A stretch of DNA of 64,000 nt. Source: Hyaloraphidium curvatum SAG 235-1. Taxonomy: Eukaryota; Fungi; Monoblepharomycota. Location: positions 62,001 through 126,000 of the forward strand of contig JAIVFI010000046.1 of assembly GCA_025558095.1 (NCBI GenBank), in the 5' to 3' direction. Positions 6,180 to 36,862 of this stretch are shown one piece after another (position 1 is the stretch's first letter; the number at the start of each line of letters is the position of its first letter). Under the pieces are notes generated by a model, which had not been told where the DNA came from, did not search any database, and worked only from the letters and a program-made list of their open reading frames with translations. The position numbers were made by a program, and so were the translations under genes.

Positions 6180-6565
6180 ATGCAAAAGGAAACCGGGTTA
6201 AGCGCGCGGCCCTCGGGTGAGCTTCCTAGTGGTAACCGAGGACCTTCGGACGCGGTTGTCAGAAGCACTTCAGAGCCGATACAAGTACGGTCCTGCGCGG
6301 GGGTGGGGGATTTTGGGGCGGCCGGGCGAGCTGAGTGTCCGGGCTGCGCCTCTCATCCGTCCCACTCGGCTTCCTCCAACGCCCACGGCCGAAACACAAA
6401 AGGCGGGTGCGGATGGCGCGTGGGATCCGTCCCGCAGGACGTCGAATCTTACCGGCGGCCGGCTCCGCCGCACGCGTGCAGGTTAGCGGCGCGCCAAAAG
6501 CAGCGTCAAGCGGGCGCCCCCGGGGGAAAGGCCATTCAAGTGGTAACCGGGGACCTTCGGACGCC
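6180..6565 (+). repeat. Left arm of diverged inverted repeat, with two direct units ending GGTAACCG(A/G)GGACCTTCGGACGC
   Basis: Units at 6228-6258 and 6539-6564; 6231-6258 is the exact reverse complement of 11767-11794; shared blocks AAGTACGGTCC and GGCGAGCTGAGTGT. Confidence 0.8.
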
Positions 6566-11484: not shown

Positions 11485-11845
11485 GGTCCGAAGCGCTCTC
11501 GGTTATCTGCAATGAATCGGCTCGAACTTTCCGAAGCGCACTACTTGACCCCCTTTTCCTTCGGGGACGTCATTTTGTTCGGCGGGAGCACCTCCGCCCC
11601 AGCAGTCCATGGTTTTTTCCAACTCTTTGACCCTTGGCTCCGTCGGCCGCGACGATGGGGGTTCGGGCGGGCGTTACACAAGCCCCCACACTCAGCTCGC
11701 CGCCCGCGCCGATTTCCCCGACGCCAGCGCCGGACCGTACTTATGCTACGTCGCCGGTAACCATTTCAACCGCGTCCGAAGGTCCTCGGTTACCCAAAAA
11801 GCTGATCCCCCGAGGACCACGCCCTTGACACGGCTTTTTTGACAT
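11485..11845 (-). repeat. Right arm of diverged inverted repeat (mirror of 6180-6565)
   Basis: Perfect 28-bp unit at 11767-11794, degenerate unit at 11486-11505; flanks align to the left arm (20/25 upstream block; block 11680-11745). Confidence 0.8.
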
Positions 11846-15484: not shown

Positions 15485-16495
15485 TTAAATCCTACGAAGG
15501 AACACCGCTGGGCTTCCCACTACGACGGTCGCGGTCTCGACATCCCTCACGACCGTACTGCCCGCCCCCACCATCGCCCCTTCCCCTATCGTCATTCCTG
15601 GGAGAATAGTGCAGTTGGCCCCCAAGCTCGCCCCGCGGCGGACCCGGATCGGAACAGGGGCCTTGTGGGCCCCGCTCCGCGGAAACGGATCGTTGCAGAA
15701 GCACGTTCCGGTGGCGACAAAGACGCCGTCCTCGAGCGTGGTGCCCTCGTAGACCGCGACGCCGTTCTTGACCGTGCAGTTGTCCCCGACGATCGCGCCG
15801 CTTTCGATGAAGGCTCCCTCGCCGATATTGCAGTTGTCGCCAACAATCGCGCCCCTTTGTATATGTGCGTTGGCCCAGACGCGGGTACCGGCACCGACTT
15901 TGGCTCCGGGGTCGACTATAGCTCTTTCGTGAATGAAACAAGCTAGGGCTCCGCCGGGTTTGTCGCCCGGTTCGGTCGGAGAAGTCGCGGCGGTAGGAGT
16001 GGAGTGGCTGCCCTTGTCGAGCGTGGCACGTCCGTCGGTGATGGCAAGCGGTAACGCCTCCATCGGCGGGCGCTCCTTTGTAGCCTCCCGCAAGAAGGCA
16101 TCATAGTCGCACACTTGGTCGGCCTCCTCGAGCGAGCATAGGCCGAGGACCACGGCGCCCGGCGCCGTCTCCAGCTCGATCCAAACAAGAGGCCCGATCT
16201 CCACGCACTGGCCGCCCGCGACCGAGTTTAGTTCCACAATCTCCTTTCTTGTGCCGTCGTCGAGATGGAGGCGACAGGAACCGGCGAGACACTGCAAGAG
16301 AGTCCGGCTCTCCCGGGCGGCGTGCCCACCCCTCTCTCCTGTCCGTATTTCGAGGCCCGTGACCACGAAATGTCGCTTCGGACTGAACGGCAGAGGCGCA
16401 AAGCTGGCAAAGCCAAGCGTCTCGCGGCAGCCGTCGGTGCGATGAAGGTTCCAGCGGCGCCACTCGGGCCGATCCCGCATCGCCGCGGCCGGCAT
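15485..16495 (-). CDS. Bifunctional FdtA/QdtA-type sugar 3,4-ketoisomerase (cupin) + hexapeptide-repeat N-acetyltransferase (FdtD/WxcM-like), intronless
   Basis: PFSPKRHF...ERGGHA...CLAGSCRLHLDDG...IGPLVW...VCDYDAFL (cupin); IHERAIVDPGAKVGAGTRVW...GDNCNIG...FCNDPFPRS...GASLGANCTILPGMTIGEGAMVGAGS (left-handed beta-helix). Confidence 0.85.
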   Translation of the reverse strand: MPAAAMRDRPEWRRWNLHRTDGCRETLGFASFAPLPFSPKRHFVVTGLEIRTGERGGHAARESRTLLQCLAGSCRLHLDDGTRKEIVELNSVAGGQCVEIGPLVWIELETAPGAVVLGLCSLEEADQVCDYDAFLREATKERPPMEALPLAITDGRATLDKGSHSTPTAATSPTEPGDKPGGALACFIHERAIVDPGAKVGAGTRVWANAHIQRGAIVGDNCNIGEGAFIESGAIVGDNCTVKNGVAVYEGTTLEDGVFVATGTCFCNDPFPRSGAHKAPVPIRVRRGASLGANCTILPGMTIGEGAMVGAGSTVVRDVETATVVVGSPAVFLRRI

Positions 16496-16748: not shown

Positions 16749-18670
16749 TCAAAACTGTTGTGGGGCTGGGTCAGCGCATACGTGTGAGAAGTGAGGAAGG
16801 CGACCTACCCGGATCTGGTACGTCCCCGCCTGCGGCACGGCCTCACCAATCAGCATCGACTCGGCCCCAGCGACACCTCCACCACCCACCTTGGTCATGT
16901 ACCTGACCCACTTGACGCTCTGGTAGTTGCTCTTCTCGAACACCTTGAGGAACCTCACCACGAGCCCCGACGCCGTGAACATTAGCACCTGGAAGTCCAT
17001 GCTGATCGGCGGCCGCGACCAGGCGCTCGCGGACCGGCCCGAGGTGGTCGGGTGGAGGGTGCAGTCGAGGGAGAGGGTGAGCTCAGTCTGGCCCTGGAAC
17101 TTGGCGATCCTGGCGGCGTTTGGGTGAGCAGGCCCGGCGGAATGGCCCGCAGGAGACCCACTTCCAAATCACCGCGTTCTCGGCGCCGACGTACTTGGCC
17201 TTGCCGCCGGTGGCGTTGATCTTGACCGCGCTGGTCGTCGGCGGCGTCGGCACGCGCACGACCACGTTCTGCGCGTGGACTTTGGAGGAGAACTGCGAGC
17301 GCACCGCGATGCGGTACTCGGCCCGCTGTTGTGAAGGGAGGGAGAAGGTGGGGGATAGGCGGAAGGGGAGGTTGATGGCCTCGGTGGAGCGGTACCTGTC
17401 CGGCACGCGTCGGTCACCCGTCGGCAACCCCACGAGCGAGGTACGCACTTCATGAGCTCAAACTCCCCGTCGGGCGGGACGAACCCGATCGTCCTGTCCG
17501 AATCGAACCTCCCAAGCCGGACGCACTGGTGGAACTGCACGTCGTCCAGCAGCACCGTCCCGTCGTCCTTCCTGTGCTGCCCGCTGGCGTCTACCACGCG
17601 ATCGTTCATGCCGAACTTGCACTCGGGCATGCCCGTGAGGTACGCCCGCACGATGACCTGGCCCGAGACGTCGGCCCGGAGGGTGCCGCCTGACACGGAG
17701 CCCAGGTAGTTGACGCTCTCCACGACGTCGACAAAGGCCTCGTTCTTGCGGTATTTAATGTCGGGACGGCGCCAGGCAATGGCGCCGGTGGCCTGGATCG
17801 AGACCTTGGTGGCCTCGGCGGAGGAAGGGGCGTCCAAAGAGCGGGTGGGGAGGGGAGCAGAGGTGATAAAGAGCTTAAGGGTGGAAGAGTCGGTGGTTTG
17901 CGGGTAGCCGGCGTCGAGAATCTCTGGAAACGGGCGAAAAAGGCCGTATCAGCAAGAGTTGGCCGGGCCCGAGTGCTCCAGAGCCGCTGAACGAAGCAGG
18001 CCTCCGAACCCGGCAACTGCGGCCCCCGGCCACCCGCATGCCATTTTGTCGAGGTGCCAAATGATCCTTCAGGCAAATGAAGGAAGGAAACAGGGTCCTT
18101 CCCCACGAATGCAGCAGCAAGCGCGTCGCGACGCGTTCCCGCCCAATTCGGGTTCCCGCTCCCGAACGGCACCCGTCGCCGCCAGCTGCTGGCCAAACAA
18201 TGCCGGCCACGTAGAAAACGAAGCAGCCGACGTCCCGTCCCGCCCCTCGAAGCCCGCAAACACCGTGGCGGTCGGCCCACCCACCGTCGAGCAGCTCGTA
18301 AACCAGCACAAAGTTGCCCTTGATTTCCTCCTCGCCGAAGCGGCCAAAATACTCGCGGCCGACGCGGCATATCCGCGTCAGGACCTCGAACACCAGCGCG
18401 GCGTTGACGTTGAGCTTGGACACCGCGACCAGGTACACGTTCTCGTGCCGGATGTGGAAGAACGTCGTCGAGCCCAGCGTCAGGATCGGCGGCGGCGTCG
18501 ACAGCGGCGACGCGATGGTGTGCACACGGAAGAGGTCGGCGACGGAGCGCCTTCGCGGGGGTCAGCGGGGCGGCCGGCGCGCGGCGGAGTGCCCACTTGA
18601 CGTCGTTCCGGAAGAGCCGCGAGATGAGCACCTCGCCCTTCAGGCTCATGATAATGATGGCAGACAGCAT
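16749..18670 (-). CDS. APM4: AP-2 adaptor complex mu subunit
   Basis: KGEVLISRLFR, LGSTTFFHIRHEN, WRRPDIKYRKNEAFVDVVE, DVQFHQCVRL, FVPPDGEFELM, FTASGLVVRFLKVFEKSNY. Confidence 0.93.
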
Positions 18671-18936
18671 GGCGGCGGCCGCCGCGGCGCGCCGCGGGGG
18701 GCGGCGGAGAGCGCGGGGACGGGGTTGAGGTGAGCGGAGCGCGGCCGCGAGGCCGCAGTTGAGGAGACCGCCCTGCCAGGGTCAACAGACCGCGCGCCCT
18801 TCGAGGCCGGAACGCATCATGGGGAACTCGAATGAGCTGTTGGTGTAGGTTTTTTGATTGGAGACCGGGACAATGATGGATTCAACCTCCATCCAGATCG
18901 TCGAGGTCTGCCGTGGCCGACACGAGGAGAACTCCA

Positions 18937-19147
18937 CCCAGCTCCACCTAGCCAATGGGACGGGAATATGATCCATCCACGCGTCTCGGGTGCGCAGGGA
19001 ACAGCTGCGTGCAGTCCTTGCCTGTTGGCTCGTTATGTTGGTGCACGACGGGCCCCCACGGTCCCGCCGGCGTCCAAGCTCCACAGCGACCCGGCGACGC
19101 CGGCGCAACCCCTCACAACGTGCGTTTCGCTCCTTAAACAGTTGGTT
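18937..19147 (+). repeat. ~210-bp inverted repeat, left copy
   Basis: Reverse complement of 35227-35439 with few mismatches (e.g. CCCAGCTCCACCTAGCCAATGGGACGGGAATATGATCCATCCACGCGTCTCGGG). Confidence 0.95.
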
Positions 19148-19318
19148 TGAGCAAATGACCATACGATTCGACGTCCATAGGTCTAATGTACAGCATACGT
19201 CATTCTCTACAATCTAGCCTCGGAGCCATGAATAGCAAGTCAGCAAATCAGTGGCAACCACGTTTCGAGCAATACGCGAGCCAACGCCGATGTGCGTAAG
19301 CTAATGCTGTCGATAATA

Positions 19319-22300
19319 TCACGCGAGCCTGTACGAGGCGTCCAGGAGCGGGTTCCGTCCTCCAAGGGTCGCGCGGAGCTCGTCGGCGTCGTTGTGCCAG
19401 ACGCGGTGCAGCTCCAGGCGGATATCCCATGGCAGATCCCAAAAGCCGCCGAGCAGACCGATCTTGTCCATGTAAGGCCGGTCCGGGTGGGCGTTGGTGT
19501 TGCACTGCCGGTACTTCATGTCCTTGCCGTAGGCGACATGGCGACACAGCGCGTCGCGGCAAAGATACCGCACGAGGATGTCGTTGTCTCCAATAACCTT
19601 GGCGATGGTACGGATAGCCTGGTCCGCGCGCAGCTGGGTGTTTCTGGTCGGGGGCTGGAGGCGCATGGTCAGGCGCCGCGGAGGGCAAAGAATGACGGCC
19701 GGCTCCCACCTCCTCGTCATCATAGGTCGCCAGGCGCTCCGCACCACCCGAACGGCCGTCTCCGAAGCGCGTCGAAGGCCTGCCAGGCTCTCGGAAGCGA
19801 TGCACGACGTAATCCCGGGCGGCGTCCCTGCGGTACTTGTCCACCTCGCGGCGCTCCTCGACCGCCGTCCCGGGAGGCATCGAGGGCACAAGCAGCTTAC
19901 GATCCGCGAGAAGACGGAGCAGCACGGCGATCTCGGGGTCCTCGGCCGCGAGCTGCTGCTCGCTGGCGTACACCTCACCGATCGTGACGAAGGCGAGCTC
20001 CCTGACGGTGGAAGTGTCCAGCTCCAGGTACCCGGGGACGTCGTGGCCGAAGAAGCAGTGGTGGAAGTCCGGCTCGACTTCAGCTCCCCCAGCGGCGTTG
20101 CACAGGTGTCCGTAGAAGGCCTGGTTGTTGCTCAACCACGTCTTCGAACAGCGCGTGCAGTGGCAGTATCGAAAGTCAATATCGTCGGGCTTCACGACCT
20201 TGTAGGCACCAGGCTTGATGACGGCCTTCAGCTTGCGGATCGCCCAGCGCGCGACCTCCGACGGAGCGCCCTGGATCGCGGTCTCGCCGAGTGCCTTCCG
20301 CTTGCCCAGCGTCTCCTCGTAGCTCGGAGCTGAAATCCGCGCGAGGCCGTTGGCCACTCGGCGGTACTCGGACCCTTCCCGCGCCTCTGCGACGAACTTG
20401 TTGAATGCAGGTCCGAGGACGTCCACGTGGCGGCCCTCCGCGTCCCTCGGCGCCGGGAACCACGCAGGGTGTTGATCGTGCCCACCCTGCTCGCGGAAGT
20501 GCTGTCCCGTGGCGACGAAAATGGAACGCAGCGTGTCCACATCGAGCTGCCTCGTTGCAGTCGGCCCGGCCTCAACGGGCATGATGAGCGCGCGGGAGGT
20601 GTCCACGCCCGGCAGCACCACATGTTGCGAGGCGTACACGGTGGGATCAAACACATCCGAGACGTTGGCATGGAAGGGCACGTTGTTCTGAGGCGGCGGA
20701 GGGGGAGCCGGCGTGGGCGGGCGGTTGGTAATGCGGCCGATGAGGAGCTGGACGTCGGGCCAGCGGCGCTTCGTGAAGGGCAGAGCGGCAGCTTCTTGAG
20801 CGCAGAGACGCCTTGCCGAAAGAACGGCCGCATAGCGGCGCTGGATCATGTCCTTGATGACGTCGATGGCCATCAGCAGGTCCGCGTTGCCCGGGTTCGC
20901 GAGAAAGCGATCTCGGCACCAGAGGAGACACTTGTAGACGTCATCTCCGTCCGCACTGTTGAGTAGCTCGCGGACCTGGCCCTAGCGAATAGGGCACCAA
21001 TGAGATTGCCAACCAAGAAGTCGGCAAGACGTCGACGACCCACCTCCGGAAGAGCGAGCTCCTGCGCCATGAAGCGCTCGAAGGCCTTGAACAGCGCGAC
21101 GCAGAGGACGAAGAAGGTGACGACGAGCCGGGCGAAGATGGGGTCGTGCTGGGGTAGGCCAGGGTGCTGTGCGCCGACGTGAGCCGTCCAAGCCGTCGGC
21201 AAGACACCATTCTTGCAGATTGTGAGCTTGCCCGCGGCGTCGATCGTACTGAGCTGCGCCATGAACCGATGAACGCTTCTGCGATCCGTGATGCGCTCTT
21301 CCAAGAGCAGATCGAGATTCTCGCCGAGCACCCCGTTCACGTGGGTCCCAACCGGAAGATGACCCATCGAAAAAGTGGTCACCGCGCGCATGGCGGCCCG
21401 CAAGCGCTGGAAGAAGACGATCACTATGATGATCAAAACCCACTGTCCGTCGATGCAGATCAGAATGAGGATAATGTCGACGAAGGGCTTCAGCTTCCTC
21501 TTGAGAGCTGTCCAGCGCTCCCGACCAGTCCCGACTTCGATCCTGTCCTCGCCGACGAAGCTCCTCCGAGCCAGCCGCGGACCGGGTCCTTCAAACGTAG
21601 CGAAGAAGGGCCACGAGTGCGCCAAGGCCCGAGCAGTCACGTCCTTGCCGTCAATCTCCGACAGAACGCGGCCTCCGACGACGTTGATGTGCTCCGTCAG
21701 CTGGAGGCGATACGAGTCGACCGTCTCGACCGGAACGCCGCGCGCGAGCTCTTTAAAGTGCCCATAGAAGCCCTTGCCGTTCGGGCCAAAGACCGCGTTG
21801 ATCTTGTCGATGGTCTCGCTTTCACGCGTTGATCCTCGGCCGTGGGCTCGTACGGCGGCAGATCGGGCTCCGCGAACCGCCGAAAAAGCTCGTGTGCATC
21901 GGGCAGGGGACGCTACGGGTTCAAAAAGCCGCCCAACGCCGAGTTGTGCGAGTCGAAGCGCTGCAGCGAGATGAGGTTCCGCTCGAGAAAGCCGTAGAAA
22001 GGGTGGCGGAGGAAGAACGCGGGGTCCGTCGCAGCCTCGGGCGGGAGCTCGAGCACAATCAAGGGCCTTGCTCTCCAGCCGTGGTTCTGCGCGTAGCTGT
22101 CGACAGCATCCCAGGACTGGAGGAGCGCCTCCTCTGTTGTCTGCTCGTCGTCGCTGACGCCGTCTTCCTCATCCCCAAAAGCATCCATCTCCATCTGAGC
22201 GGCTCGCTCCGCAGCTGCACGCGTCTCGTTGACGAAGCGGACGGCAACGTTGCCGTCAATGTCTTTCGTGTACCGGTCCACGGGGGTCACGGCATTCTGG

Positions 22301-23178
22301 ATGACCACGCCCGCGTAGCGCCGACTGTAGGTCTTCGCCCCCAGCGCGCCGGCCTCTGCGATGGACGCAAGGCTGGAGACACCGAAGCCCGCGTCGCCGA
22401 GGAACCTCGACGCGTAGAACTTGTAATCCAGCTCCGCCTCGCCGATGTCCTGGTCCTTGGCCCGCACGTAGAGCATGATCCTCGGCTTGCCCTGGTCGAG
22501 CCTGGGGAAGGGGCGTGGATCCGATCAGCCGGGCAGCCAGCAAGGCCAGAGGGAGGTGGCTCACTGGACGGAATCGGTATCGTCGGTGAACGAGAAGCTC
22601 CAGATCGCGTTCACGTCCTCGATGTCGGGGGTCTGTTCCGTGAGCGCAACGGGCAACGAAAAGCTAGATCCAGACCACGTCCCGCCGGCAGGAGCTTCGA
22701 ATTCGGCGGGCGAAGCGCGCGACAGAAACGGGTGCGCGTGATCCTCGCGCAACCTTCCCACGAGCACGGGCAGCTTGTCGAACCAATCGGCGGCGTGCAC
22801 AGGGTCGATGAGCTGACGAATAAGAGGGTAGAGCATGGCGGGCTGGCAGAACGGGTCGAGCGAAGCGTCCGAGACGGGGATGAGCCCGCGGTGCTCGTCC
22901 CACGCCGCGATGAAGGATCGCAGGGCGTCCGCTCGTTCGCCGTGAGTCGTGGAGCTCCTCAGCCTCTCCCGCAGCTCATGGAGCAGCTCCTTGTGCTTCT
23001 CGCGCTGCTCCAATCTCTCGTCCACCAGCGGCACCATGGCCTCGACCGCCACCGCGAGCTTCGCGGGACGCTCGTCCACGGTCCGTTGCCGCTTGGCCTC
23101 GTTGGCCCGCTCCCTGCACTCCTCCTTCCTCTTCTTCTGCTGATCCACGCCCTCGTTGAAGACGTCCGCCACGGCCAT
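19319..23178 (-). pseudogene. Large (~1200 codon) gene of unknown family, broken by an in-frame stop and frameshifts
   Basis: Consecutive minus-strand coding-like segments; in-frame TAG at 21913 with the frame continuing (RPLPDAHELF); frame changes near 21830, 20975 and 19780; Cys/His motif YCHCTRC...HLC. Confidence 0.55.
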
Positions 23179-24539
23179 GGTGGGCAAGGCGCAGCGGGAA
23201 AAGCCGGGCGTCCGACGGGGGCGCCGCAAAAGGGGGTGGATTTCGGCCAGGGACGCGTGCGAGAACGCGTCGTCCGGGGCAAAAGGGGGCAAGGAGAATA
23301 CGGCGCGCCGCGCGGCGTCGATGACGCCGGCGGGTCCCGCGCTGGCTGCGGGATCGGGGTTAGGATAAGGAGGGGAGGAAACGCGCCCGTTTGGGCTCCC
23401 CGGGTGACCTTCCATAAACGCACGCCGAATCCGTGGAAGCCGGGAAGGATACAGCCCTTAACGGCCTGCAAACCGAGCAAGGCACCTGGCTCGAAGGAGA
23501 GAGCTAGAATAGGGTTGATGTAGGCGAAATCGGCCGGGGAAAAGCTCGAATCTAGTGAATCGTGCTTTGGTACAGACCGCCTGACGCGTGGTAGACTTTC
23601 CGTGAGATTCATCGATGCCGTCGACGGGTGCGGAGCGCTTACTCTGCTAGTGCCGGAGAACGTCCTTGGACGGGAGAGTGTGAATGGGACCCTCTGTGGT
23701 CGGAATCCTGCGTGCGCCCTTCGTCGTCGCATCTCTGCACAACATCAAGGCGCGCGGGTGCTCCGAAAGCGCTGCATCATCGCGCCGGGGCAAGCCGACG
23801 ACGACGGTGCGCCGCGGGCCACACAAATGGGGAGAGCGCCCGCGGCCGCGGCCGGGCGTCTCCGCGGAGTGCAAGAGCGGTGCGGCCACGATGCTCACCA
23901 CTAGAAAGTCTCCGTCACCGGCCAAACTGGGTTCTCCACTTCTGTGGAAAAGGGCCACGGTCTTGCGCTGCGCCGCGGAAACGGGGGATCCCCCGGCCCG
24001 CAGCCCCCGCGCCGCACGTCCATCGCCGGGCGCGCAGGCCATGGATCCGCCCCGTTCGACGTCTCGGACAGCGTCCGAAAAGTCGGCGTCGTCACATCGC
24101 CGAAGTGTTCGCAACTTCGTGCGGCAGGCTGCACTCATGTTCGAGCCGCTGTCTCGATGTACTACAGCAGATTGCGATAGCATCCGATTGCGATAGCATC
24201 CGAGCTTTCAATCTGCCATCCGGCTTCCAAACTACGTCACGTTGGCCGGAAACGTTTCCTGTTGGGCGCTTTTGTTGCTGTCGTCTCCGGCTGTGGGGCT
24301 GACCAGGATTGGCCCCGGGCGGACACAGAGTCATGCCCCAGCGAGACCAGCTGGGACCCCGAGGAATCCATCAAAGATACGGGCAGATTATAACAGCTGT
24401 GTAGCTTGGAAGCTGAGTAGGGACGCACCGAGGCATCGATTTCGAACTGCAATGGCCCAGGACCTCCCGCGTCCGGGCAACCCGGCAACATTAAGCAGAC
24501 ACCCCATAGACGACTCTTCCTCGTTCAAACGGCGTTTGG

Positions 24540-24643
24540 ACCCTTGTAGCTCAACTGGTTAGAGCACGGTGCTTATAGTTTGCTGCGAAACTATGATCTG
24601 AGCAACGCCGTGGTTCGCGGTTCGATCCCGCTGGGTAAGGGAT
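24540..24643 (+). tRNA. tRNA-Ile(UAU) with intron; imperfect acceptor/T junction (possibly pseudo)
   Basis: TAGCTCAACTGGTTAGAGC (A box/D arm), CGGTG-CT-TAT-A, intron, CGCCG stem, GGTTCGATCC (B box); extra bases before the 3' acceptor strand. Confidence 0.75.
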
Positions 24644-24802
24644 TTGGGGCCATCGCATCTTCCCCTGTCCTCGCATTGACAGGGCGCGGATCCACTCGGA
24701 ATGTCACCGGAGCGAGGAAGGGCGGCTTGGAGTGGAGCACCCGCCTGAAAGCGGGCTAGGTCTCCCACCTAGTGCACGTTTTCCTATTTAAACGATGTTT
24801 GT

Positions 24803-24904
24803 TCCCCAGTAGCATAGTTGGCCAATGCACAGTGCTTATAGTTTGATGCGAAACTATACTTCCGAGCCACGCTGCAGACGCGAGTTCGAGTCTCGCCTGG
24901 GGTA
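24803..24904 (+). tRNA. tRNA-Ile(UAU) with intron
   Basis: CCCCAG/CTGGGG acceptor, GCAT/ATGC D stem, CAGTG-CT-TAT-A...CGCTG anticodon arm, GCGAG-TTCGAGT-CTCGC T arm. Confidence 0.8.
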
Positions 24905-25499
24905 CTGATCGGGCTTTAATCATTTTGATACATGCCCGGTGGGTTCCCCCATGGCTGCCTGGACTCCGGTCTCCCTTTCTGGGACGGTTCGGCAACGCTT
25001 TGCCCGGACAATGGTAATCATTTTCGCACCCGAAACGGCTCGGATCGCCCGCACCTGTGCAGCGGCCACTGGAGCGGGACGTGGCGCACGGAGAGCCACA
25101 GACAGGTCTGAAAATTTGCATCACGGTAGCAATCCATGCACCAATAGGAGCTACATGGTCAACCACATTATATTTTCCCGTTCCGATGCTGATCCGGGGA
25201 TGCAAAAGCGGGAATGGGATGGCGTTCGCGAGCAACTGGTGCGAACGCAGACCGGGGTCCAGACTGGCCATCCCCCCCCGCGCGCCCACCACCTAGTGGC
25301 CGTGCGTGCACCGAGGATTTGCGCACGTCGCCCATGCTGGGAGGGCGCCGGCGCCCGCGCTTCTCCGCGATCCTCGGCCCGCGCAGGACCCGGCCGCAGC
25401 GCGGAATCGGCCTCATGCGTGTCCGGCCATCGCGGCTCCGTGCGGGCTCCCAACCGGGTGCGCACGACGTGCCATCAGCAGTGACGGTAACTGCGTGGC

Positions 25500-28430
25500 T
25501 TGGGCCGACCGTGGTGCCCCCAACGCCGATGTGGCGCGCGCCTCGGCCGCTCCGCTGAGGCGGCAGACCGGTACGCCGGCGGCCGCCGGCACCACCGGGC
25601 TGCGTGCCACGGCGTCGGGCTGCGTGCCACGGCGTGCGGCGGCACCTCGCTGCAGCTCTCCTGCAACGGAGGCGTCGTCGTGATCGCCGACGCGTTCTAC
25701 GGCCGCGTCATTCCCGGCGAGGCGGCGCTGGATTTCTCGTGCCAGACGCCGGCCAACAACACGCAAGTCGACGACTGCAGCCTGTCTCCGGCGCTGTCAG
25801 CCGCCCTCGCCGTCGACGTCGCCCGCGCCTGCGATGGGAAAGAAAGCTGCAGCTACCTTCTGGACGCCAACTTCGAGGCGATGCGGGGCGACCCGCGCCC
25901 CGGCGTGCACAAGTTCCTGCGCGTGTCGTACGACTGCATGGCGCCCGCGCTGTTCGCGCACGTGCCGCCCGCGCCCGAGCCGGCACAGTACCCGACGCTG
26001 GGGACGCGCAGGCCATCGACGTTCGCCGCGGCAAAGTGCCCGCTGGTCGCCGCCGCCGCGGCAAACGTGTCGGCGTCGGCCGCGAACTGGGCGCTGCGCG
26101 TCGAGCCCAACCCGGGCCCGTTCGGCGCCTACACCGTCGACGCAGTCGATCTGGACATGTCGGAGCTGGACGCGCTGCTGTCGGCCTGGACCAGCGGCCG
26201 GGCGTCGATCCACACGGCATACAGCCTCAAGGTCCGCGCGGTCAACGTGATTTTCCCCGGCAACACCGTGTCGGTCGGCCTCGGAAACACAGCCAACATG
26301 ACCCGCGTGGTCATCGAGGCAGCCAACGTCGTCGCCCTGCCCGGCAGCGCGCTCGCGGTCTACTCGACGGCGCCGGACCCCGCCACGGGCGAGCGGGGGC
26401 CCGACGTCAAGATCAGGGCGGGCAGGGTGTTTGGCCGGCTGGACGTGTTGTTCAACGGGATGAAGGCGGGGAACCCGCTGGTGCAGAGCGTGTCGGGGAC
26501 CTACAACCGTGGGTGCCTCCTCTTGCGAGCCTGAACTCGGCCTGACCCTACTCCACCCACGACCAGTCGGCCTCTCGGCCTCTACCATCCCCCCCTCCGG
26601 CATCCAGTGCACGACGTGGGCGATCCAAGGCAGCGACGTCGCCTTCCCCTACGCCGCGATCCCCACCTGCGCGCCCCTCCCCCTCTCGCAGTCCTTTGCC
26701 CCCATCTGCGTCAGCCAGATGGACACCTCCAACCCCGGCAGCCCAGTCGGCCTCAACCTGAACCCCTACTACGGCGCCAGCTGGGCGACCGCCCCGGGCC
26801 AGGATGGGCTGCCCTTCAACACGGACCGGTTCACGTGGGACAGCAAAGACAACCCGAACGGCGCCTTTGACCTGGACGCCCGCGTGTTCTACGACGCCGA
26901 GGGCACCCCCGGCAACACATCCACCTCGACCACCGCCTACGCCGGCATCGCCTCGACCGCAGACTACTCGATCTCGCTGTACAACAACCTGCGCGCCGAC
27001 GGCAGCCTGGCCCTCATCAGCCAGTGGAGCGCCGCCTTCGACCCCAGCAACCCCCTGCCCAACATGCAGCAGCTGCAGAACGCGACATGCGGCGGCGGAT
27101 GGCAGGTCGGCTGGAAAGCCGCGGCGTTCGGACAGCTCGCGCAGACCCCAGGCGCCAGCACGGCCGACCCATCCTCGTTCCCCGCGCTCCCCTCGCAGAT
27201 TGCCTCCCTGGCCTCGGCCTGCGCCGACGAGATGGTCGGCTCCGGCCGGTACGCCGAGGCTTTTGCCTTTGCCCTTGACCTCGGCGAGCTGCTCTCGCTC
27301 GGGGCAGCGCAGGGGGACTACGCCGCCTCGGCCAGCCTGGGCGGCATGTACGCATCGCAGTCGTCCCTGCGCGCCGACAGGCGCGACCTGGCCATCCAAC
27401 CCGTGCCCTTCCTCTCGCAGTCGAGCACCAACCAGCTCGCCGCCCTGGAGGTGCAGAACCTTGAGGCGCTGGCGGCGCAGGTGGATGCCGTGCGGGACTC
27501 GACGCAGCGAATCTCCAGCGCGCTGCAGGCAGCCAGATGCGCTGCGGCCGCCGCACAGGCTCAGGTGTACCGGGACTCGCTTGGACTGGACAAGTCCTAC
27601 GTTCAGTCGCTCGGCCTGGCGGTGCAGCAGCTCAACGCCTCGTTCGCCGAGGCGCACGCCAACCTCAACGCCACGGGCAAGGCCTTCATGGATGCCGTGG
27701 AGAAGAAGGTGGAGGAGAACGTGTTCGAGGCCGCGTTCGAGCTCGTCTTTGCCATCCTGTCGGCGCTCGTGGGCGGCATCGGCGAGGGGGCCGCGATCGC
27801 CAAGATCGGCAAGGACGCGGGGTCGCTGGGGAAGCTGTTCCAGGACCTGGAAAAGGTGGCCAATATGCTGAAGGAGATCGGCACGCTGCTGGCGGGGATC
27901 AACTCCATCATTGCGGTGAGCTTTGCGTGCAGCAGCTCGTCCGGCACGGCCCGATCTCACCTCTTCCCCATGCCAGGCCTCGGTGACGCTCAACAACGCC
28001 ATCATCAGCAACCCGGTCGGCAACACGGACCTCAGCGGGGCCATTGCCTCGGCGCTGGCGGGCAACCTGAGCACCGGCAACCTCGCCTCGCTCGCTTCCT
28101 CGGCCCTTGCGTTCCAGAACCTCCACGACGAAGCCTACATCACCGTCGGCCCCGCCATCAATCAGGGCATCACGGGCGCGTCCGAGTACGCCGAGGCCCT
28201 GGCCAAGACCGCCAACGCGGGCGGCGACCTCGTCAAGGCGCAGATCAACTACCTCGCCGCGCAGAACAAGGAGCTCGTGGCGGCTGCGCACGGCGCTCAA
28301 ATACCAGGCCGCGCAGGCCCAAGCCGATGCGCTGCAGGCGCGGGCGAACCAGCTGGCCAACGACGAGACGGCGGTGGTGGAGGCTGGCGATGATCGAGAT
28401 GGAGTTTTCGCTCATGAAGCAGAAGCGGAG
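25500..28430 (+). pseudogene. SUEL/Gal-Rha-binding lectin domain + long helical region with hydrophobic hairpin; frameshifted and 3'-truncated
   Basis: ACGGTSLQLSC...IADAFYGR...CDGKESC...GDPRPGVHKFLRVSYDC; introns ~26509-26566 and ~27916-27977; 20-bp duplication frameshift at 25596-25635; frameshifts near 28285 and 28380. Confidence 0.7.
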
Positions 28431-28906
28431 GGGGCGGGGGGAAGCGTGCGTGCGGCCGCTCGGTGCCGGCTCGCGACGATGCTGACCTTTGGCATTCGTT
28501 CAGCCTGCTGCCCGCCCTTCCCAACCTTCAACCTTACCCTACCCGAAACCCGGCAAGCCCGACGAAGCGCGTTACCTGACTGGAGGCATCGTCGCCGTCG
28601 GGTGGTTAAGCTCAGATGCGCGACAGCCTTGCGTTCGGCCGGGCCTGGAGCTGTTGTGGCGGATCGACAACGATTTCGGCATCATCGCGAACGGTTTTTT
28701 CAGGTAGCCGTAAACATGAATCATCTAGGGTATCGATCACATCCTCCCGCGGGTCGAAGTCCATTACTGAGCATAGCTAGTGAGCATACCAATGGGGCAA
28801 TACAAATGTCACAATCAGAACACCGTGCGGGAGTCCACTCTAAGTTTCTGTAGGAACATCGGATTAGCAAGGAGGATGGACTCCCACGCAGGACGGGCTC
28901 ACCCCT

Positions 28907-30679
28907 CTACCCGAGGCCGGGTCTGGCATAGACCTTGGCAATCCCCTCCCTCTCCAGCTCCTTGAACTTGTCCACCGCCCTAGGCTCGTGTCCGACGAGG
29001 GTGATGGGGAACGCAAGGTTCGTGGAGGGGCGCTTCTTGCCCTGCTCGGCAGCCTTGTCGGCAGCGGCGACCTCGCGGGTAAACTCAATGACCCGCACGA
29101 GGTGGGCGGCGTAAAGCTCAGCGCGCTGCTTCGCGAGCTTCTTGAGACTCTCCCCGACGACGGTCCCCTTGTCCCAGTGCCCATCGAACCACTTCTTGAC
29201 AAGGCTCCGGCTGGCGACGGCTTCCTTGCCCTTGACGGTGAGAAACCCGTCAGCTCGAAGCGCGGCTTCCGCGGTCTCCCTGAGCGCCTCTGTGGTGCCC
29301 GGCCGGGCGATCGTCCCGTCTGCCGGGAGCGCACGCCGAGCCGCGGCCGTGTACGCCTTCTTGATCTCGGCGAGGGGGTCCGTTTCGGCGACGCGGAAGG
29401 AGCCAAATAGCTTGCGGGCGCCGAAAGCCTGGACCTCCGGAGTTCGAGTGGTAAAGTCAAGAGTCCCGTTGATGACCTCGCGCTGGCGTGCGACGTCGTC
29501 GTCGAGGTTCTTGAGGTGAGCTTTCTCGTCCATTTCCTCCTCGTCTACGATCTTCTCGTCTACGATAAAGCAGTGAGTTTCACAAGAGCAACGAAGCTTC
29601 GCCCGCCACGTACTGGACGAGCCGTCGATCGTCAGGAGACGGAGGAAGTCGAGGCGTCTGAGGGTTTCAAGGAAAGAGACCTGAGGTTCCGAGTGGAGCA
29701 GCTTGATGGTGACGGTGACGCCGTTGATCTGCACGCGGAACTTGGATTCCAGCCCTTTCTCAGCGAGGAAATCGAGGAGCTGAAGACGGAACGGTTGAGA
29801 TCAACACCCTGGGGAAAGACCGCAACTTACGAGCTCGAAGAAGGCGTAGGCCGACCATCCGCCGTGCTTGGCACAGCGCCGCAGTCCGTCCTCGTCAGCC
29901 TCCTTGCGAGGCTCCAAGCCGCAGCCCGGGAAGGCGCAGACATCGAAAACCTTGACAGCTCCCAGGGGCCTGCCGTGCGGGGCACAGTACCAAAGTTCGT
30001 CGAGCCTGAAATTCCCCCTGATCAGGTCCGGGCACTCGGGGCAGTAATGCGCGTAAGGATCGGAAGCGTCGTCGGGGGCGCAGCTGGCGCAAAAGAAGCC
30101 GGGGACTGTCGGACTTGTGTAGTGAGGAATGACCTGCGAAATGGTTGTGTTTTAAATTCCAGTCCGGGCTCACGACAAAACGATACTGACCGAAGCGCAG
30201 GTGCTGCACATGTCGTGCATCGGCTTCACGGGCACTCCCTCCCTCGTCGAACAATCGCGGCACCAGGTCCCACTGTCCTCGGCCCGAAAGTGGGGGCGCC
30301 TGCCGCAGCCGCCCGAGCATCTCTGGCTCTCGTAGCTGTAGATGGCGATGGACTCCGTGGTTCCTGTCAACTTCTGGTTCGCAGCCGTTCCACACTTGAA
30401 GCAGAGCGGTCTGCCCTCGACGTTCATGTAAACGCGGCGCTGGCAGGTGCCGTTCGTGCACAGGTTCTGCTTCGAAAACCTGAAAAAGGAGCATAGTGAG
30501 AAAATGAGCAGCCTTTGATGAACCCAGACGAACCGGGAGGGATGCTTCTGGCCGTTATGCTCCATGCAGTTCTTGCAGGCCTCGAGCTCAGCGCCGTGGT
30601 CGTCAACAAAGAAGAAATTGCCGATGTCCAGCTTGTGGGCCGGGGACCTCTTGCTCGGGGGTACTTTGCAGTTGACCAT
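28907..30679 (-). CDS. Cys-rich repeat (EsV-1-7-like) protein with putative C-terminal PD-(D/E)xK endonuclease, ~4 introns
   Basis: Repeats such as CSGGCGRRPHF...WCRDC and CAFPGCGLEP...RCAKH; after splicing RRLDFL...EEEMDEKAH...DDVARQREV. Confidence 0.6.
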
Positions 30680-31975
30680 CGCGATTCCCTGCCGTGTCCG
30701 CTTGCTCAATAAACGCCATGGTCGAGCAATCGATGCAGGCTTACAGAATGAATAGCCAGCGACAGTCCTTGAATGTGATCCGGCCGGGAACGGCGAGTGG
30801 GGGCGGCCGTCCCGAAGCCGCCCTGAGCCGTAGCCCGCGCCGAGGTCCGCGCCGAGCACAGGAGACAAAAGACCGCGTCTGACCCGCCGTTTTCAGCGGC
30901 GGCGCAGAGACGCGCCGGGGACGCGCGCGGGTCTGCGCGAGGGGAGGTTTTGAAGGAGCTTGAGGTTGTCCCCTTCCTCTCATCAACGCGCCGAGGATGG
31001 CAAACGGGCAGCCGTGTGGCAGACACGCGGCTACGGGCATTGGCCTCGCCGGTCCATCGCAACTGTTGCCCTGCTCCATGACCGTCGTCGTCGAACGCGA
31101 CGACGGGCGGCGTTAGACGGGGCAACGGTGGCGTGCGATGACGCGTCACCGCGATCGGCGACGACGCGCGGCAGGGAGCGTGGTCCTTGCTCGAACAGCG
31201 GGCTTCCATTCAGCCTCGCACGAGAATCCTCTGCGGTTCAACAGAGCGACATCGTGTTCATTGCTGGGCTGGCGTACGATTCGGAAACGCGGCCCGAGGG
31301 GGTGTCGATGCTGCTGGATGTCGCCCAGCACCACGACAAACGCCGCAACATAGCGCACTCCGCGAGTTCCTGAAGCGCATCGTCAGCGGTGCCACGCGGC
31401 TGCGTGACGACACGAAGCGTACGCTCAACACCACTGAAGACCCGTGTTCCGCCGACCGTGCGGCTCCCTCGCGCCCCGGGAAAGCCATGTTCGCACCAAA
31501 TGCCGCCCTGTTCGAGCACCTCGGCGCCCGGGGAAGAGCGCGGGTAAGACCGGCGGCGACCGGCGGCGGCTGCGGCTGCCGCCGGTCGGCGCGGCCTTGC
31601 CGGAAGCGAATCCCGGCTCGTTCGGCCTCGGGAGAGCCCAAAACTGTCCAATTGGAAGACTCCGCTGCGTCCTCGAGGGAATGAGGCGGCCAAGGCGGGG
31701 TGTTCTTGGATAAGCGACGACGCTTCGGTCGTCACAACCGCAACGTCACAACCCTCCATCAGTCAGGGCGGTGCTGGCCACGAAGTTACCTCCTTGTCCC
31801 CGCTGGCGGTTCCTAGCGAAAGTGGGCGACGTTTCTGTTCCTACCAGTGGAAGTGGAAGCTACTGTGACCTGGATTTGGCCTCTCTCTCGAGCTTGGTCC
31901 GGCTCGGCGTGCGGCCTGCCGGGCATCATGGCTGCCGCTCGGAGCGCAAGATTAGGGGTTCACCGCGTGCTTAAG

Positions 31976-32351
31976 GAAGCTCTTGCCGCATTGGAGCATG
32001 CGTAGGACGCCTAAAGGCGTCCTGGCTCGACATCAATGGTCTGGCGTCCTTTAATCGAGGTTTGACAGAGGTGTGGTTGGAACCTGAGCTCCGCCTCGTT
32101 CGCGCTTGGATCCCGCGCAGGGGTATACGAAGCTTTTGCCGCATTGGAGCATGCGTAGGACGCCTAAAGGCGTCCTGGCTCGACATCAATGGTCTGGCGT
32201 CCTTTAATCGAGGTTTGACAGAGGTGTGGTTGGAACCTGAGCTCCGCCTCGTTCGCGCTTGGATCCCGCGCAGGGGTATACGAAGCTTTTGCTGCGTTGG
32301 AGCATGCGCAGGACGCCCAAAGGCGTCCTGGCTCGATATCGATGGTCTGGC
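31976..32351. repeat. Tandem repeat, 153-bp unit, ~2.5 copies
   Basis: GAAGC(T/C)TTG unit starts at 31976, 32129 and 32282; first two copies nearly identical. Confidence 0.95.
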
Positions 32352-32644
32352 AACCATTGAGCGTTGCTTCGCTGCCGGGGCAGTCCGCACTCGGGTGCTG
32401 TGACTCCACTCCACAACTAACCTGTGGTCACGAATCTCTTGAGAGAATGTAGAGAAATCGGATGTGAATGACGAGAGGAGGTCGTCCCATCGTTGTCGTC
32501 CGCAGGAATGTGCCAAGGGGGACGGTCATACCGAGTCAGCACTTCCTCTTCCTTCACACGCGCAACATGAGTTCAATTCTTGTATTCCGTTCTTTTGAAG
32601 TGTCACAGGATGAATCAGCATTAGTCTTCCCCCGGCGGCAGCCA

Positions 32645-34804
<2,160 letters not shown>

Positions 34805-35194
34805 CGTCGGGGAGGTGTGCCTGAGTGGAAGCAGTCAACAAAAGTGACTTGCGTGCCCCCAGCGGCGACGAACGATCGCGGGCCTCACGCCGCGCAAAGA
34901 AAGGCGGAACCATGAACGCGGAGCATTGAATCGAGATGAGAGCAACCTCGGTAATGGTTGGATGGGGTGGTCGGTTACGATCTGCCGCCGACTCTGCTAC
35001 ACCGTCACGTGGATCCTCCAGGATCCAGAGAGACAGGGACTAACCCAGCATTCTACTCTACTTGAGTGCGGACCCAACATGTTTTAGCTTCCCAGGATGT
35101 TTTAGCTTCCCAGGATCCTTAGATTCCTTGTTTGCAGGTCCTCGAATCCGTGCCTGGGCACCAGGACAGGGGCCAGATCGCGATCAGATCCCGG

Positions 35195-35225
35195 ACCGTG
35201 CTCTAACCAGTTGAGCTACAAGGGT
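35195..35225 (-). pseudogene. tRNA 5'-half fragment identical to 24540-24570
   Basis: 31/31 reverse-complement match ACCCTTGTAGCTCAACTGGTTAGAGCACGGT; no anticodon loop or T arm follows. Confidence 0.9.
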
Positions 35226-35226
35226 T

Positions 35227-35439
35227 AACCAACTGTTTAAAGAGCAAAACGCACGTCGTGAGGGGTCGCGCCGGCGTCGCCGGGTCGCTGTGTGGAGCTT
35301 GGACGCCGGCGGGACCGTGGTGGCCCGACGTGCACCAACATCACGAGCCACCAGGCAAGGGCTGCACGCAGCTGTTCCCTGCGCACCCGAGACGCGTGGA
35401 TGGATCATATTCCCGTCCCATTGGCTAGGTGGAGCTGGG
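35227..35439 (-). repeat. ~210-bp inverted repeat, right copy
   Basis: Reverse complement of 18937-19147. Confidence 0.95.
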
Positions 35440-35512: not shown

Positions 35513-36862
35513 ATGCCCCCCCGCGGCACGAAGCGCCCGCGGGACGCCACGCCGGACGAAGTTGAGATGTCGGACAGCGCGCACGGGCGCCGACGGACGG
35601 GCCGGGAGCCCGGAAGTTCCGATGCCGAATCGCAGGCCGAAGCGGGAGCAATCGAGCGTTCCCCTGCCCGGAATACACACGGAGACGAATCATTGGACGA
35701 GGAGGACCCCGCCGTGGCGGCGCTGGCGAGGGCGCTGGCGCGGGACAACGGGTCGGGCGGCGTACGGGCGTCGCTGCGGGCGCTGCTGGCCGCACACGGC
35801 GTCGAGGTCGCTTCGGAAGTCGAGGAGGACGAGGAAGCGGGTGGTGATGACGGGGAAATGATGTGGACGGACGAGGACGACGGGAGCGGGGACGGGGAGT
35901 ACGCGCCGGTCGGCGACGACGATTCGGGCGAGGAAGACGACGAAGATTACGAGGAAGAGGACGACGGGGAGTACGATCCGCCGTCGGATGAGGACGACGA
36001 GGAGGACGATGCGCTCGAGGAGCGGGCCAGGCTGTTCCGCGGCATCCAGCGGCTGCTGGGCACGCATCGCGAGCGGGGAGAGGACAAGCTGATGAAAAGG
36101 AAGCGGACGCGGACGCTGGCGGAGAGTAACAAGCTCGGGCTGGCACAGTTTGTTGGCAAGCGCAAGATCAGGTTGGTTTCGTCCTTGCCGAAGCAGGAGG
36201 CCCCTTGTGGACCTGACCACCTGCTTAGTGCCTCGGTGATCTCGACCGCGCGGATCAACCAAGGCTCGTCGTTTTCGCAGCGCGATGCCACGTTCGACAT
36301 TGCCCCGGTCGGCGCCGTTGCCCGGCCGTCGGACCTCTCCGGCACCATCTCAATCGCCCCCGCCCGCGCGCCGCCGCACCCCTTCTCCCTCCCTTCCACG
36401 ACGCACCTCTCCTCCTTCAGCTGGGACCCGCGGCTCGGCCTCGCTCGCTTCAGCTGGTCCTTCTCCCCGCCCGCGGACCCGCCCCGCACCTCGCGGACGG
36501 CGTACGACGCGGAGCATTCTTCCTACGAATCCGCCGTCGACGCCGCCGCCTCCTCCGGCCGTGGAATCATGTGGCTCTGCGAGCGCGATGACGGCGCCGA
36601 GGCGCTGGTCGCGCTGATGGAGGCCGGTGGGGAACCGGACGCGGAGGTGCCCGCGCGGGAAGGGGGGCCGAAGGAGTACGGGCCCAAGCCGGGGATGCCG
36701 ATCGGGTGCGTGGCGGCGCCGGTGGAGCCGCTGGGGGCCGGGCTGAGGGTGACGTTCGAGGCGGTGGCGATCGCGGCGGGGGAAGGGAAGGGAAGGAACG
36801 GAGCGCGACGGGCGGCTACGGAGGACGAAGGGAGTGACGACCATTCGGAGTATCTTGCCTGA
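35513..36862 (+). CDS. Hypothetical protein with long Asp/Glu tract and basic NLS-like motifs
   Basis: 449-aa ORF with GC3-biased codons; PPRGTKRPR and KRKRTR; possible in-frame intron ~36172-36228. Confidence 0.6.
   Translation: MPPRGTKRPRDATPDEVEMSDSAHGRRRTGREPGSSDAESQAEAGAIERSPARNTHGDESLDEEDPAVAALARALARDNGSGGVRASLRALLAAHGVEVASEVEEDEEAGGDDGEMMWTDEDDGSGDGEYAPVGDDDSGEEDDEDYEEEDDGEYDPPSDEDDEEDDALEERARLFRGIQRLLGTHRERGEDKLMKRKRTRTLAESNKLGLAQFVGKRKIRLVSSLPKQEAPCGPDHLLSASVISTARINQGSSFSQRDATFDIAPVGAVARPSDLSGTISIAPARAPPHPFSLPSTTHLSSFSWDPRLGLARFSWSFSPPADPPRTSRTAYDAEHSSYESAVDAAASSGRGIMWLCERDDGAEALVALMEAGGEPDAEVPAREGGPKEYGPKPGMPIGCVAAPVEPLGAGLRVTFEAVAIAAGEGKGRNGARRAATEDEGSDDHSEYLA

What the first reader, a model, noticed from the sequence alone, without database searches (positions are those of the whole stretch)
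18937..35439. 16.5-kb island bounded by ~210-bp inverted repeats, with a tRNA half-site at the right boundary
Seen: near-identical inverted repeats flank decayed ORFs, two tRNAs, a lectin pseudogene, a virus-like nuclease gene, a tandem repeat and the mitochondrial EF-Tu gene. The right repeat abuts a 31-bp exact copy of the 5' half of the internal tRNA-Ile. The left repeat stops precisely where that tRNA sequence would begin. Established: partial tRNA duplications mark integration sites of recombinase-mobilised islands, and several eukaryotic retroelements target tRNA 5' flanks. Inference: a tRNA-targeted insertion or rearrangement hotspot, or a large TIR element that captured a host gene. 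No integrase or transposase was recognised.
Basis: partly seen in the sequence, partly recalled or inferred. Interest (0 to 1): 0.75.

Follow-up and report, generated by a model that had tools for sequence, protein, structure and literature searches.

The report
Inversion scar at decayed tRNA cluster
In a freshwater fungus, two 211-base inverted copies of the DNA just upstream of a truncated isoleucine tRNA gene bracket 16 kb of host and orphan genes, most likely as the ordinary scar of a local chromosome inversion and not as the ends of a mobile element.

Summary
Repeats at 18937-19147 and 35227-35439 are 94.8% identical, and a 31-bp exact 5' half of tRNA-Ile(UAU) lies at 35195-35225. The host is Hyaloraphidium curvatum.

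The repeat's inner end is a true tRNA upstream flank (18/30 identical to the tRNA2 flank). So the right end is a truncated third tRNA-Ile gene with its own flank, not an attachment-site half.

Against a mobile element: no target-site duplication, no recognisable transposase or integrase, and the tRNA duplicate is inverted, not direct. TUF1 and APM4 lie two loci apart in Synchytrium microbalum (1 of 15 species), so TUF1 is probably native, not cargo. The interior 'decayed ORFs' are spliced orphan genes, one intact and one broken. The 'virus-like nuclease' label found no support.

Best reading (0.5): a staggered-break inversion next to a tRNA gene duplicated the flank. No genome was available, so copy number and ancestral orientation are untested. 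The left break sitting one base from the tRNA start is unexplained. An unchecked note from this scan reports a similar architecture at a tRNA-Thr in another genome.

The parts
18937..19147 (+). Left copy of the repeat R: tRNA-Ile upstream flank with a CCAAT at 18952; outer end 267 bp upstream of the APM4 start codon
35227..35439 (-). Right copy of R; inner end 18/30 identical to the tRNA2 flank, TTTAAAC at -16 from the tRNA start; outer end 74 bp from the gene X ATG
35195..35225 (-). 31-bp 5' part of a third tRNA-Ile(UAU) gene, cut off one base before the end of the anticodon-stem 5' strand; identical to tRNA1
24540..24637 (+). tRNA1, tRNA-Ile(UAU) with intron; degenerate (3 nt missing from the acceptor 3' strand); has its own tRNA-type flank (17/30 to the tRNA2 flank)
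24803..24904 (+). tRNA2, tRNA-Ile(UAU) with intron; folds normally except U1-U72; only 19/31 identical to tRNA1 over the 5' half
19170..24434 (-). Gene 1: one 5.0-kb contig skipping 4 GT-AG introns; ORF1 23415-21913 (479 aa, P0121), then a second long frame open to 19319; a stop at 21913 and a frame change near 21820 break what is likely one ~1,300-aa orphan gene
25491..28500 (+). SUEL-lectin-domain gene with a helical C-terminal part; frame changes near 28290-28390 and a 20-bp tandem duplication at 25596-25635; diverged paralogs in run X1; probable pseudogene
28907..30679 (-). Gene 2: intact spliced orphan, 518 aa (P0122), cysteine-rich N-terminal half; further introns at 28848-28902, 30689-30744 and 31370-31422
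31976..32351 (.). 153-bp tandem repeat, 2.5 copies, 96% matches
32645..34804 (-). TUF1, mitochondrial EF-Tu, spliced; matches H. curvatum P0001
16809..18670 (-). APM4 (AP-2 mu subunit), left flanking host gene
35513..36862 (+). Gene X, acidic ORF of 449 aa with no Pfam or NCBIfam family, right flank; its contig starts at 35485, 46 bp from R

Best explanation
The two repeats are copies of the upstream flank of a truncated tRNA-Ile(UAU) gene, likely duplicated in inverted orientation when the 16-kb block was inverted through a staggered break, so the block is likely ordinary host DNA and not a mobile element. Inferred history: (1) APM4 and TUF1 were neighbours, transcribed divergently, with R plus a tRNA-Ile gene between them (start codons about 0.9 kb apart if the block is flipped). 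(2) Three tRNA-Ile(UAU) paralogs were under weak selection because ATA is hardly used, so one lost its 3' part and one lost part of its acceptor stem. (3) A break staggered across R, with its inner cut at the tRNA start, and a second break between gene 1's 3' end and gene X were rejoined in inverted order. This left R at both ends and the tRNA half only on the TUF1 side. (4) The copies have since diverged by 4.3%. The new right copy, which carries a CCAAT about 65 bp from the start of gene X's contig, may now act as gene X's promoter.
For: Shown: R's inner 30 bp match the tRNA2 flank 18/30 (0 of 20,000 random 30-mers reached this), and tRNA1's flank matches tRNA2's 17/30 (P 0.0003), so R-half and flank-tRNA1 are both native junctions. 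There is no direct repeat of 5 bp or more within 12 bp of the outer ends. No transposase, integrase or RT family matched the interior ORFs in Pfam, PHROGs, NCBIfam or PDB. P0121 and P0122 are single-member clusters, and P0122 hit only itself among 1.84 billion representatives. S. microbalum TUF1 (g05281) and AP-2 mu (g05283) are two loci apart on contigs of the same length, 192,390 bp; this is 1 of 15 species present in both hit lists (counted by eye), with a rough chance of about 0.01. ATA is 1 of 103 Ile codons in the coding segments counted. Interior genes have host-type 51-63-nt GT-AG introns and GC3 of 0.81-0.83. Established: inverted duplications of non-repetitive DNA mark 17 of 29 Drosophila inversions and can appear at one breakpoint only (PMC1885836, passages); yeast inversions are flanked by tRNA genes (PMC2817429, passages).
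Against: The ancestral orientation is not shown. Gene directions in S. microbalum are unknown, and the present tandem APM4-TUF1 order needs no inversion if it is ancestral. The closest relatives, two Gonapodya assemblies, do not link the genes, and 0 of 80 metagenomic AP-2 mu loci (31 of them 8 kb or longer) carry a mitochondrial EF-Tu. The left break lies one base from the mature tRNA start, which a random break would rarely do (about 1-2%, a post hoc estimate). The model needs a separate event to truncate the tRNA. Genome-wide copy number of R was not tested. Two long orphan genes in one block is also what mobile DNA looks like.
Confidence: 0.5

Rival explanations
1. No inversion: R was copied once from the right locus to the left by repair or template switching, and landed inverted between APM4 and gene 1. 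The orphan genes, tRNAs and lectin accumulated between APM4 and TUF1 independently.
For: It explains every junction with one short duplication and fits the lack of a TSD. It fits APM4-TUF1 linkage in any orientation. An older inverted pair also brackets ORFs at 6183-6345 / 11681-11841 in the same window.
Against: An inverted copy only 16 kb away, ending at a functional boundary, is the typical staggered-break signature. The flipped order gives a compact divergent APM4/TUF1 pair.
Confidence: 0.22
2. The 5.4-kb segment 19148-24539 is a decayed tRNA-directed element (Dada-like in behaviour). It inserted at the start of tRNA1, pushed R away and brought its own tRNA-type flank; R plus half on the right would be an earlier copy of the empty site.
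For: The left R and tRNA1 are in the same orientation, and R ends one base from where the tRNA would start. One spliced contig fills almost the whole segment (19170-24434), antisense to the tRNA. The likely full gene (~1,300 aa, cysteine motifs) and the segment length fall in the range given for Dada (4.7-11 kb; 1,402 aa in one family; often antisense to the target; PMC3706591). The half is identical to tRNA1 although the flanks differ.
Against: Dada inserts inside the gene (nucleotides 8-13 or around the anticodon) with a 6-7-bp TSD. Here the site is the 5' edge, and only a 5-bp GTTTG match, at chance level, was found. No DDE family hit. No relative of ORF1 among 3,806 candidates. tRNA1's flank resembles tRNA2's, as expected for a native tandem pair. 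31 identical bases have P 0.26 at the divergence of R.
Confidence: 0.12
3. R is a low-copy dispersed repeat (MITE, solo LTR or SINE-like) and two independent copies happen to lie inverted 16 kb apart.
For: Genome-wide copy number is untested. An unchecked note reports a young Gypsy element in this genome.
Against: R has tRNA-flank homology at the correct spacing, and there is no third copy in 64 kb.
Confidence: 0.08
4. The whole 16.5 kb is one large TIR element or recombinase-mobilised island that captured TUF1.
For: It has near-identical 211-bp inverted ends, a Polinton- or MULE-like size (recalled), and orphan genes and tRNAs inside.
Against: No TSD. No transposase, integrase, polymerase or capsid hit, and no relatives of the orphan proteins in IMG/VR. 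The ends are 4.3% diverged. The tRNA duplicate is inverted. TUF1 is linked to the outside gene APM4 in S. microbalum. Composition inside is like the flanks (GC 0.62-0.67 vs 0.65-0.66).
Confidence: 0.05
5. Assembly artefact.
For: No contig laid bridges either repeat, so the junctions are unverified.
Against: The copies differ at 9 substitutions and one indel. Spliced contigs match the interior exons with 0 other letters in the pieces listed.
Confidence: 0.03

Closest known systems
Inversion-associated inverted duplications from staggered breaks (Drosophila melanogaster group; PMC1885836, passages read)
   Same: Inverted duplicate of apparently non-repetitive DNA at both ends of a block of host genes, diverging by substitutions and small indels; a duplication from one breakpoint only is an allowed outcome.
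   Different: Here the duplicated piece is a tRNA flank and promoter fragment of 211 bp around only 16 kb, and the inversion itself is inferred, with no outgroup order.
tRNA genes at yeast inversion and synteny breakpoints (PMC2817429, passages read)
   Same: Rearrangement boundary at a tRNA gene in a fungus.
   Different: The tRNA here is truncated and the duplicated sequence is its flank; no LTR or Ty was seen.
Dada DNA transposons (PMC3706591, parts 1-2 of 4 read; PMC8869645, passages read)
   Same: tRNA-associated, 5-11 kb, intron-containing large ORF often antisense to the target; tRNA-Ile is a known target in Perkinsus; present in a fungus (Laccaria).
   Different: Dada has no TIRs, inserts inside the tRNA with a 6-7-bp TSD and encodes a DDE transposase; none of these was met here.
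Prokaryotic tRNA-integrating genomic islands (recalled, not from a call)
   Same: A partial tRNA copy at one boundary.
   Different: Islands leave direct repeats, usually of the 3' part, and encode an integrase; here the copy is 5', inverted, has its own flank, and no integrase was found.

Membership tests
Staggered-break inversion scar | Inverted duplication at both ends of the block | tested here: met
Staggered-break inversion scar | Duplicated sequence is otherwise single-copy | not testable with these tools
   no genome held; two copies in 64 kb
Staggered-break inversion scar | Outgroup shows the un-inverted gene order | tested here: inconclusive
   APM4 and TUF1 two loci apart in S. microbalum, orientation unknown; not linked in Gonapodya
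TIR DNA transposon (MULE, hAT, CACTA, Polinton) | Terminal inverted repeats | tested here: met
   211 bp, 94.8%
TIR DNA transposon (MULE, hAT, CACTA, Polinton) | Target-site duplication | tested here: not met
   none of 5 bp or more within 12 bp of the ends; 2-4-bp TSDs not excluded
TIR DNA transposon (MULE, hAT, CACTA, Polinton) | Transposase, integrase or pPolB gene | tested here: not met
   no hit in Pfam, PHROGs, NCBIfam or PDB; remote homology not excluded, folds unusable
TIR DNA transposon (MULE, hAT, CACTA, Polinton) | Other copies or an empty site | not testable with these tools
   no genome; P0121 and P0122 are single-member clusters
Dada | Insertion inside the small-RNA gene with a 6-7-bp TSD | tested here: not met
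   junction at the tRNA 5' edge; best match 5 bp, chance level
Dada | DDE transposase with DxxH and zinc fingers | tested here: inconclusive
   no family hit; the paper's alignment file could not be read
tRNA-integrating recombinase island | Direct repeat of the tRNA segment at attL/attR | tested here: not met
   half and full gene are inverted
tRNA-integrating recombinase island | Tyrosine or serine recombinase gene | tested here: not met
Endogenous giant-virus segment | NCLDV marker or viral homologs | tested here: not met
   no relatives in IMG/VR or among 1.84 billion representatives

The most novel reading that the evidence does not exclude
A new kind of tRNA-anchored mobile or invertible unit in early-diverging fungi. 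Its ends are built from a tRNA gene's 5' flank, it cuts at the mature tRNA start, it carries its own tRNA-type flank to keep the target transcribed, and it is driven by an orphan, intron-containing, cysteine-rich protein (gene 1 or P0122) of no known family, reshuffling promoters of neighbouring host genes as it moves.
Probability: 0.08. Interest if true: 0.75.

Novelty: new member of a known kind. Interest (0 to 1): 0.25.

Why it matters
On the best reading this is a tidy but ordinary example of a tRNA-associated micro-inversion in an early-diverging fungus. Two points have some value. The scar may have handed a copy of the APM4 upstream region to an orphan gene. The APM4-TUF1 link may be a very old piece of microsynteny shared with Synchytrium. 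If the flank-plus-half-tRNA architecture proves recurrent and tied to an orphan nuclease, it would be an undescribed tRNA-targeting mechanism in eukaryotes.

Tried and rejected
Genome-wide search of the repeat: no genome held.

ARAGORN: 0 tRNAs in default mode; a relaxed intron run gave only spurious folds in the part printed. Rfam was used instead.

Runs: 2 listed, no RNA holder on record. X1 is only guessed to be RNA, though its contigs skip canonical introns. None of the 4 X1 and 2 X2 contigs laid on 18600-25100 covered R; this is no evidence on copy number, since holes prove nothing.

A 22-mer of R gave 0 matches in metagenome and viral contigs; a tRNA-intron motif gave 0 in viral contigs. 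The scan's index held no look-alike of R or P0122 and nothing nearby.

ESM Atlas gave no usable hit for P0121 residues 255-479 or for P0122. Single-sequence AlphaFold models had pLDDT 34 and 45, so no fold search was run. By eye, P0121 has a GIY-YIG-like stretch and P0122 a PD-(D/E)xK-like stretch with cysteine repeats; these labels are recalled and no call supported them.

80 metagenomic AP-2 mu loci had no mitochondrial EF-Tu neighbour; the one weak hit (33% identity) is likely another GTPase. None is a close relative (best 68%).

LTR plus primer-binding site was rejected because the tRNA sequence follows R in sense, not antisense. The Mycodnaviridae paper has 0 main-text mentions of Hyaloraphidium, Gonapodya, monoblepharids, tRNA or inverted repeat (PMC13533422, term search only; supplements not checked). 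Searches for prior description (listings only) showed no paper on this locus.
Full report
Observation. The repeats are at 18937-19147 (+) and 35227-35439 (-), 94.8% identical over 213 columns, with 9 substitutions and a 2-bp indel. On the minus strand the right copy is followed by one base and then 31 bases identical to 24540-24570, the 5' part of tRNA1. The left copy ends one base short of that point and runs into unrelated sequence. Rfam finds tRNA2 (24803-24904, 46.6 bits) and, below its cut-off, tRNA1 (24540-24637, 24.9 bits, 3 nt missing in the acceptor 3' strand). Both read UAU and have related introns. No TSD of 5 bp or more lies within 12 bp of the outer ends.

Host. EF-Tu exons match Hyaloraphidium curvatum P0001, and P0121 and P0122 match at 100%. 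No genome was held, so copy number could not be tested.

What the repeat is. The 30 bases before the tRNA half match those before tRNA2 at 18/30 (0 of 20,000 random 30-mers reached this). tRNA1's flank matches tRNA2's at 17/30 (P 0.0003), and tRNA1's flank matches R at only 11/30 (P 0.12). All three carry TTYAAAC at -16. So R's inner end is a real tRNA-Ile flank, the right end is a third tRNA-Ile(UAU) gene that has lost its 3' two-thirds, and tRNA1 has its own native flank. ATA is 1 of 103 Ile codons in the coding segments counted, which would relax selection on this isoacceptor (inference) and fits the 19/31 identity between tRNA1 and tRNA2. Near its outer end R holds a CCAAT (18952; 35420). 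That end lies 267 bp from the APM4 ATG and 46 bp from the start of gene X's contig.

The interior. Contigs of run X1 (guessed to be RNA) skip canonical introns throughout. Gene 1 is one 5.0-kb contig, 24434 to 19170, with four introns. It encodes a 479-aa ORF and then a long second frame; a stop at 21913 and a frame change near 21820 separate them, and GC3 stays at 0.81-0.83 on both sides, so it is likely one decaying gene. Gene 2 is intact, 518 aa and cysteine-rich. Both are orphans: P0122 hit only itself among 1.84 billion representatives; the ORF1 exon hit 1 of 3,806 candidates, itself; Pfam, PHROGs, NCBIfam, PDB, IMG/VR and the ESM Atlas gave nothing significant. Folds were unusable. The 'virus-like nuclease' label rests only on a by-eye motif. 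The lectin gene has a SUEL domain, frame changes and diverged paralogs. Base composition inside resembles the flanks.

Synteny. Of 15 species present in both the EF-Tu and AP-2 mu hit lists (counted by eye, and four have a contig under 25 kb for at least one gene), one, Synchytrium microbalum, has the two genes two locus tags apart on contigs of equal length. The rough chance is 4/5,283 x 15, about 0.01. This suggests that TUF1 is an old neighbour of APM4, which lies outside the 'island', and so is not captured cargo. Against this, Gonapodya prolifera has them on different scaffolds, 0 of 80 distant metagenomic loci show the link, and orientation is unknown.

Mechanism. The simplest single event that gives inverted R copies with the tRNA half on one side only is an inversion with a staggered break across R. 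Flipping the block puts APM4 and TUF1 head to head, with start codons 903 bp apart and R plus the half between them. Such scars are common at Drosophila inversions and can arise at one breakpoint only (PMC1885836, passages), and tRNA genes flank yeast inversions (PMC2817429, passages). Shown: the repeats, their tRNA-flank nature, the lack of a TSD, the gene structures and the S. microbalum link. Inferred: the inversion, the order of events and any promoter role. Confidence 0.5.

Rivals. A single copy-paste of R without inversion (0.22) cannot be separated from the inversion without an outgroup. A Dada-like element at 19148-24539 (0.12) would explain the left break one base from the tRNA start and the antisense transcript that fills the segment. 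However, Dada inserts inside the tRNA with a 6-7-bp TSD and has a DDE transposase (PMC3706591, parts 1-2 of 4; PMC8869645, passages), and only a chance-level 5-bp match was found; the Dada alignment supplement could not be read and may bear on this. A dispersed repeat (0.08), a whole-block TIR element or island (0.05) and an artefact (0.03) are less likely.

Earlier notes. One unchecked note describes an inverted duplication of half a tRNA-Thr plus upstream DNA in another fungus-like genome and reaches the same reading. I had written the staggered-break model down before seeing it, and it is not independent evidence. If such cases recur they would justify a survey.

Verdict. A real feature, most likely a known kind of rearrangement scar at a decaying tRNA-Ile(UAU) cluster. 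Interest 0.25, with an 8% chance of an undescribed tRNA-anchored element.

Noticed in passing
window 6183-6345 (+) and 11681-11841 (-); third partial copy 6542-6564 (+): An older inverted pair (166 bp, 73%) with blocks of exact conservation and a 23-bp core present three times (0 expected in 100 shuffles). It brackets two minus-strand ORFs with no Pfam or NCBIfam hit. RNAalifold gives 35 pairs, 2 compensatory, from two copies; no Rfam hit. Possibly an undescribed structured RNA or regulatory element.
   Followed up: partly
window 24803-24904: The best-folding tRNA-Ile(UAU) has a U-U mismatch at 1:72; it may need 5' editing or may itself be decaying.
   Followed up: no
window 24543-24793: An X1 contig runs from the start of degenerate tRNA1, unspliced, to the flank of tRNA2; possibly read-through.
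   Followed up: no
window 28907-30679: P0122 is an intact spliced orphan with many CxxC motifs and a by-eye nuclease-like acidic motif; no homolog anywhere searched.
   Followed up: partly
window 25491-28500: The SUEL lectin fused to a long helical domain belongs to a paralog family in this organism (X1 contigs with many differences and loose ends).
   Followed up: no
window 16809-18670 and 32645-34804: Possible very old APM4-TUF1 microsynteny shared with Synchytrium microbalum.
   Followed up: partly
window 15485-16495: An FdtA/WxcM-like cupin plus hexapeptide-repeat ORF of bacterial type directly downstream of APM4; possible horizontal transfer.
   Followed up: no
window 35079-35127: An 18-bp tandem repeat (2.5 copies) at the 5' end of the TUF1 contig, about 70 bp from the tRNA half.
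   Followed up: no
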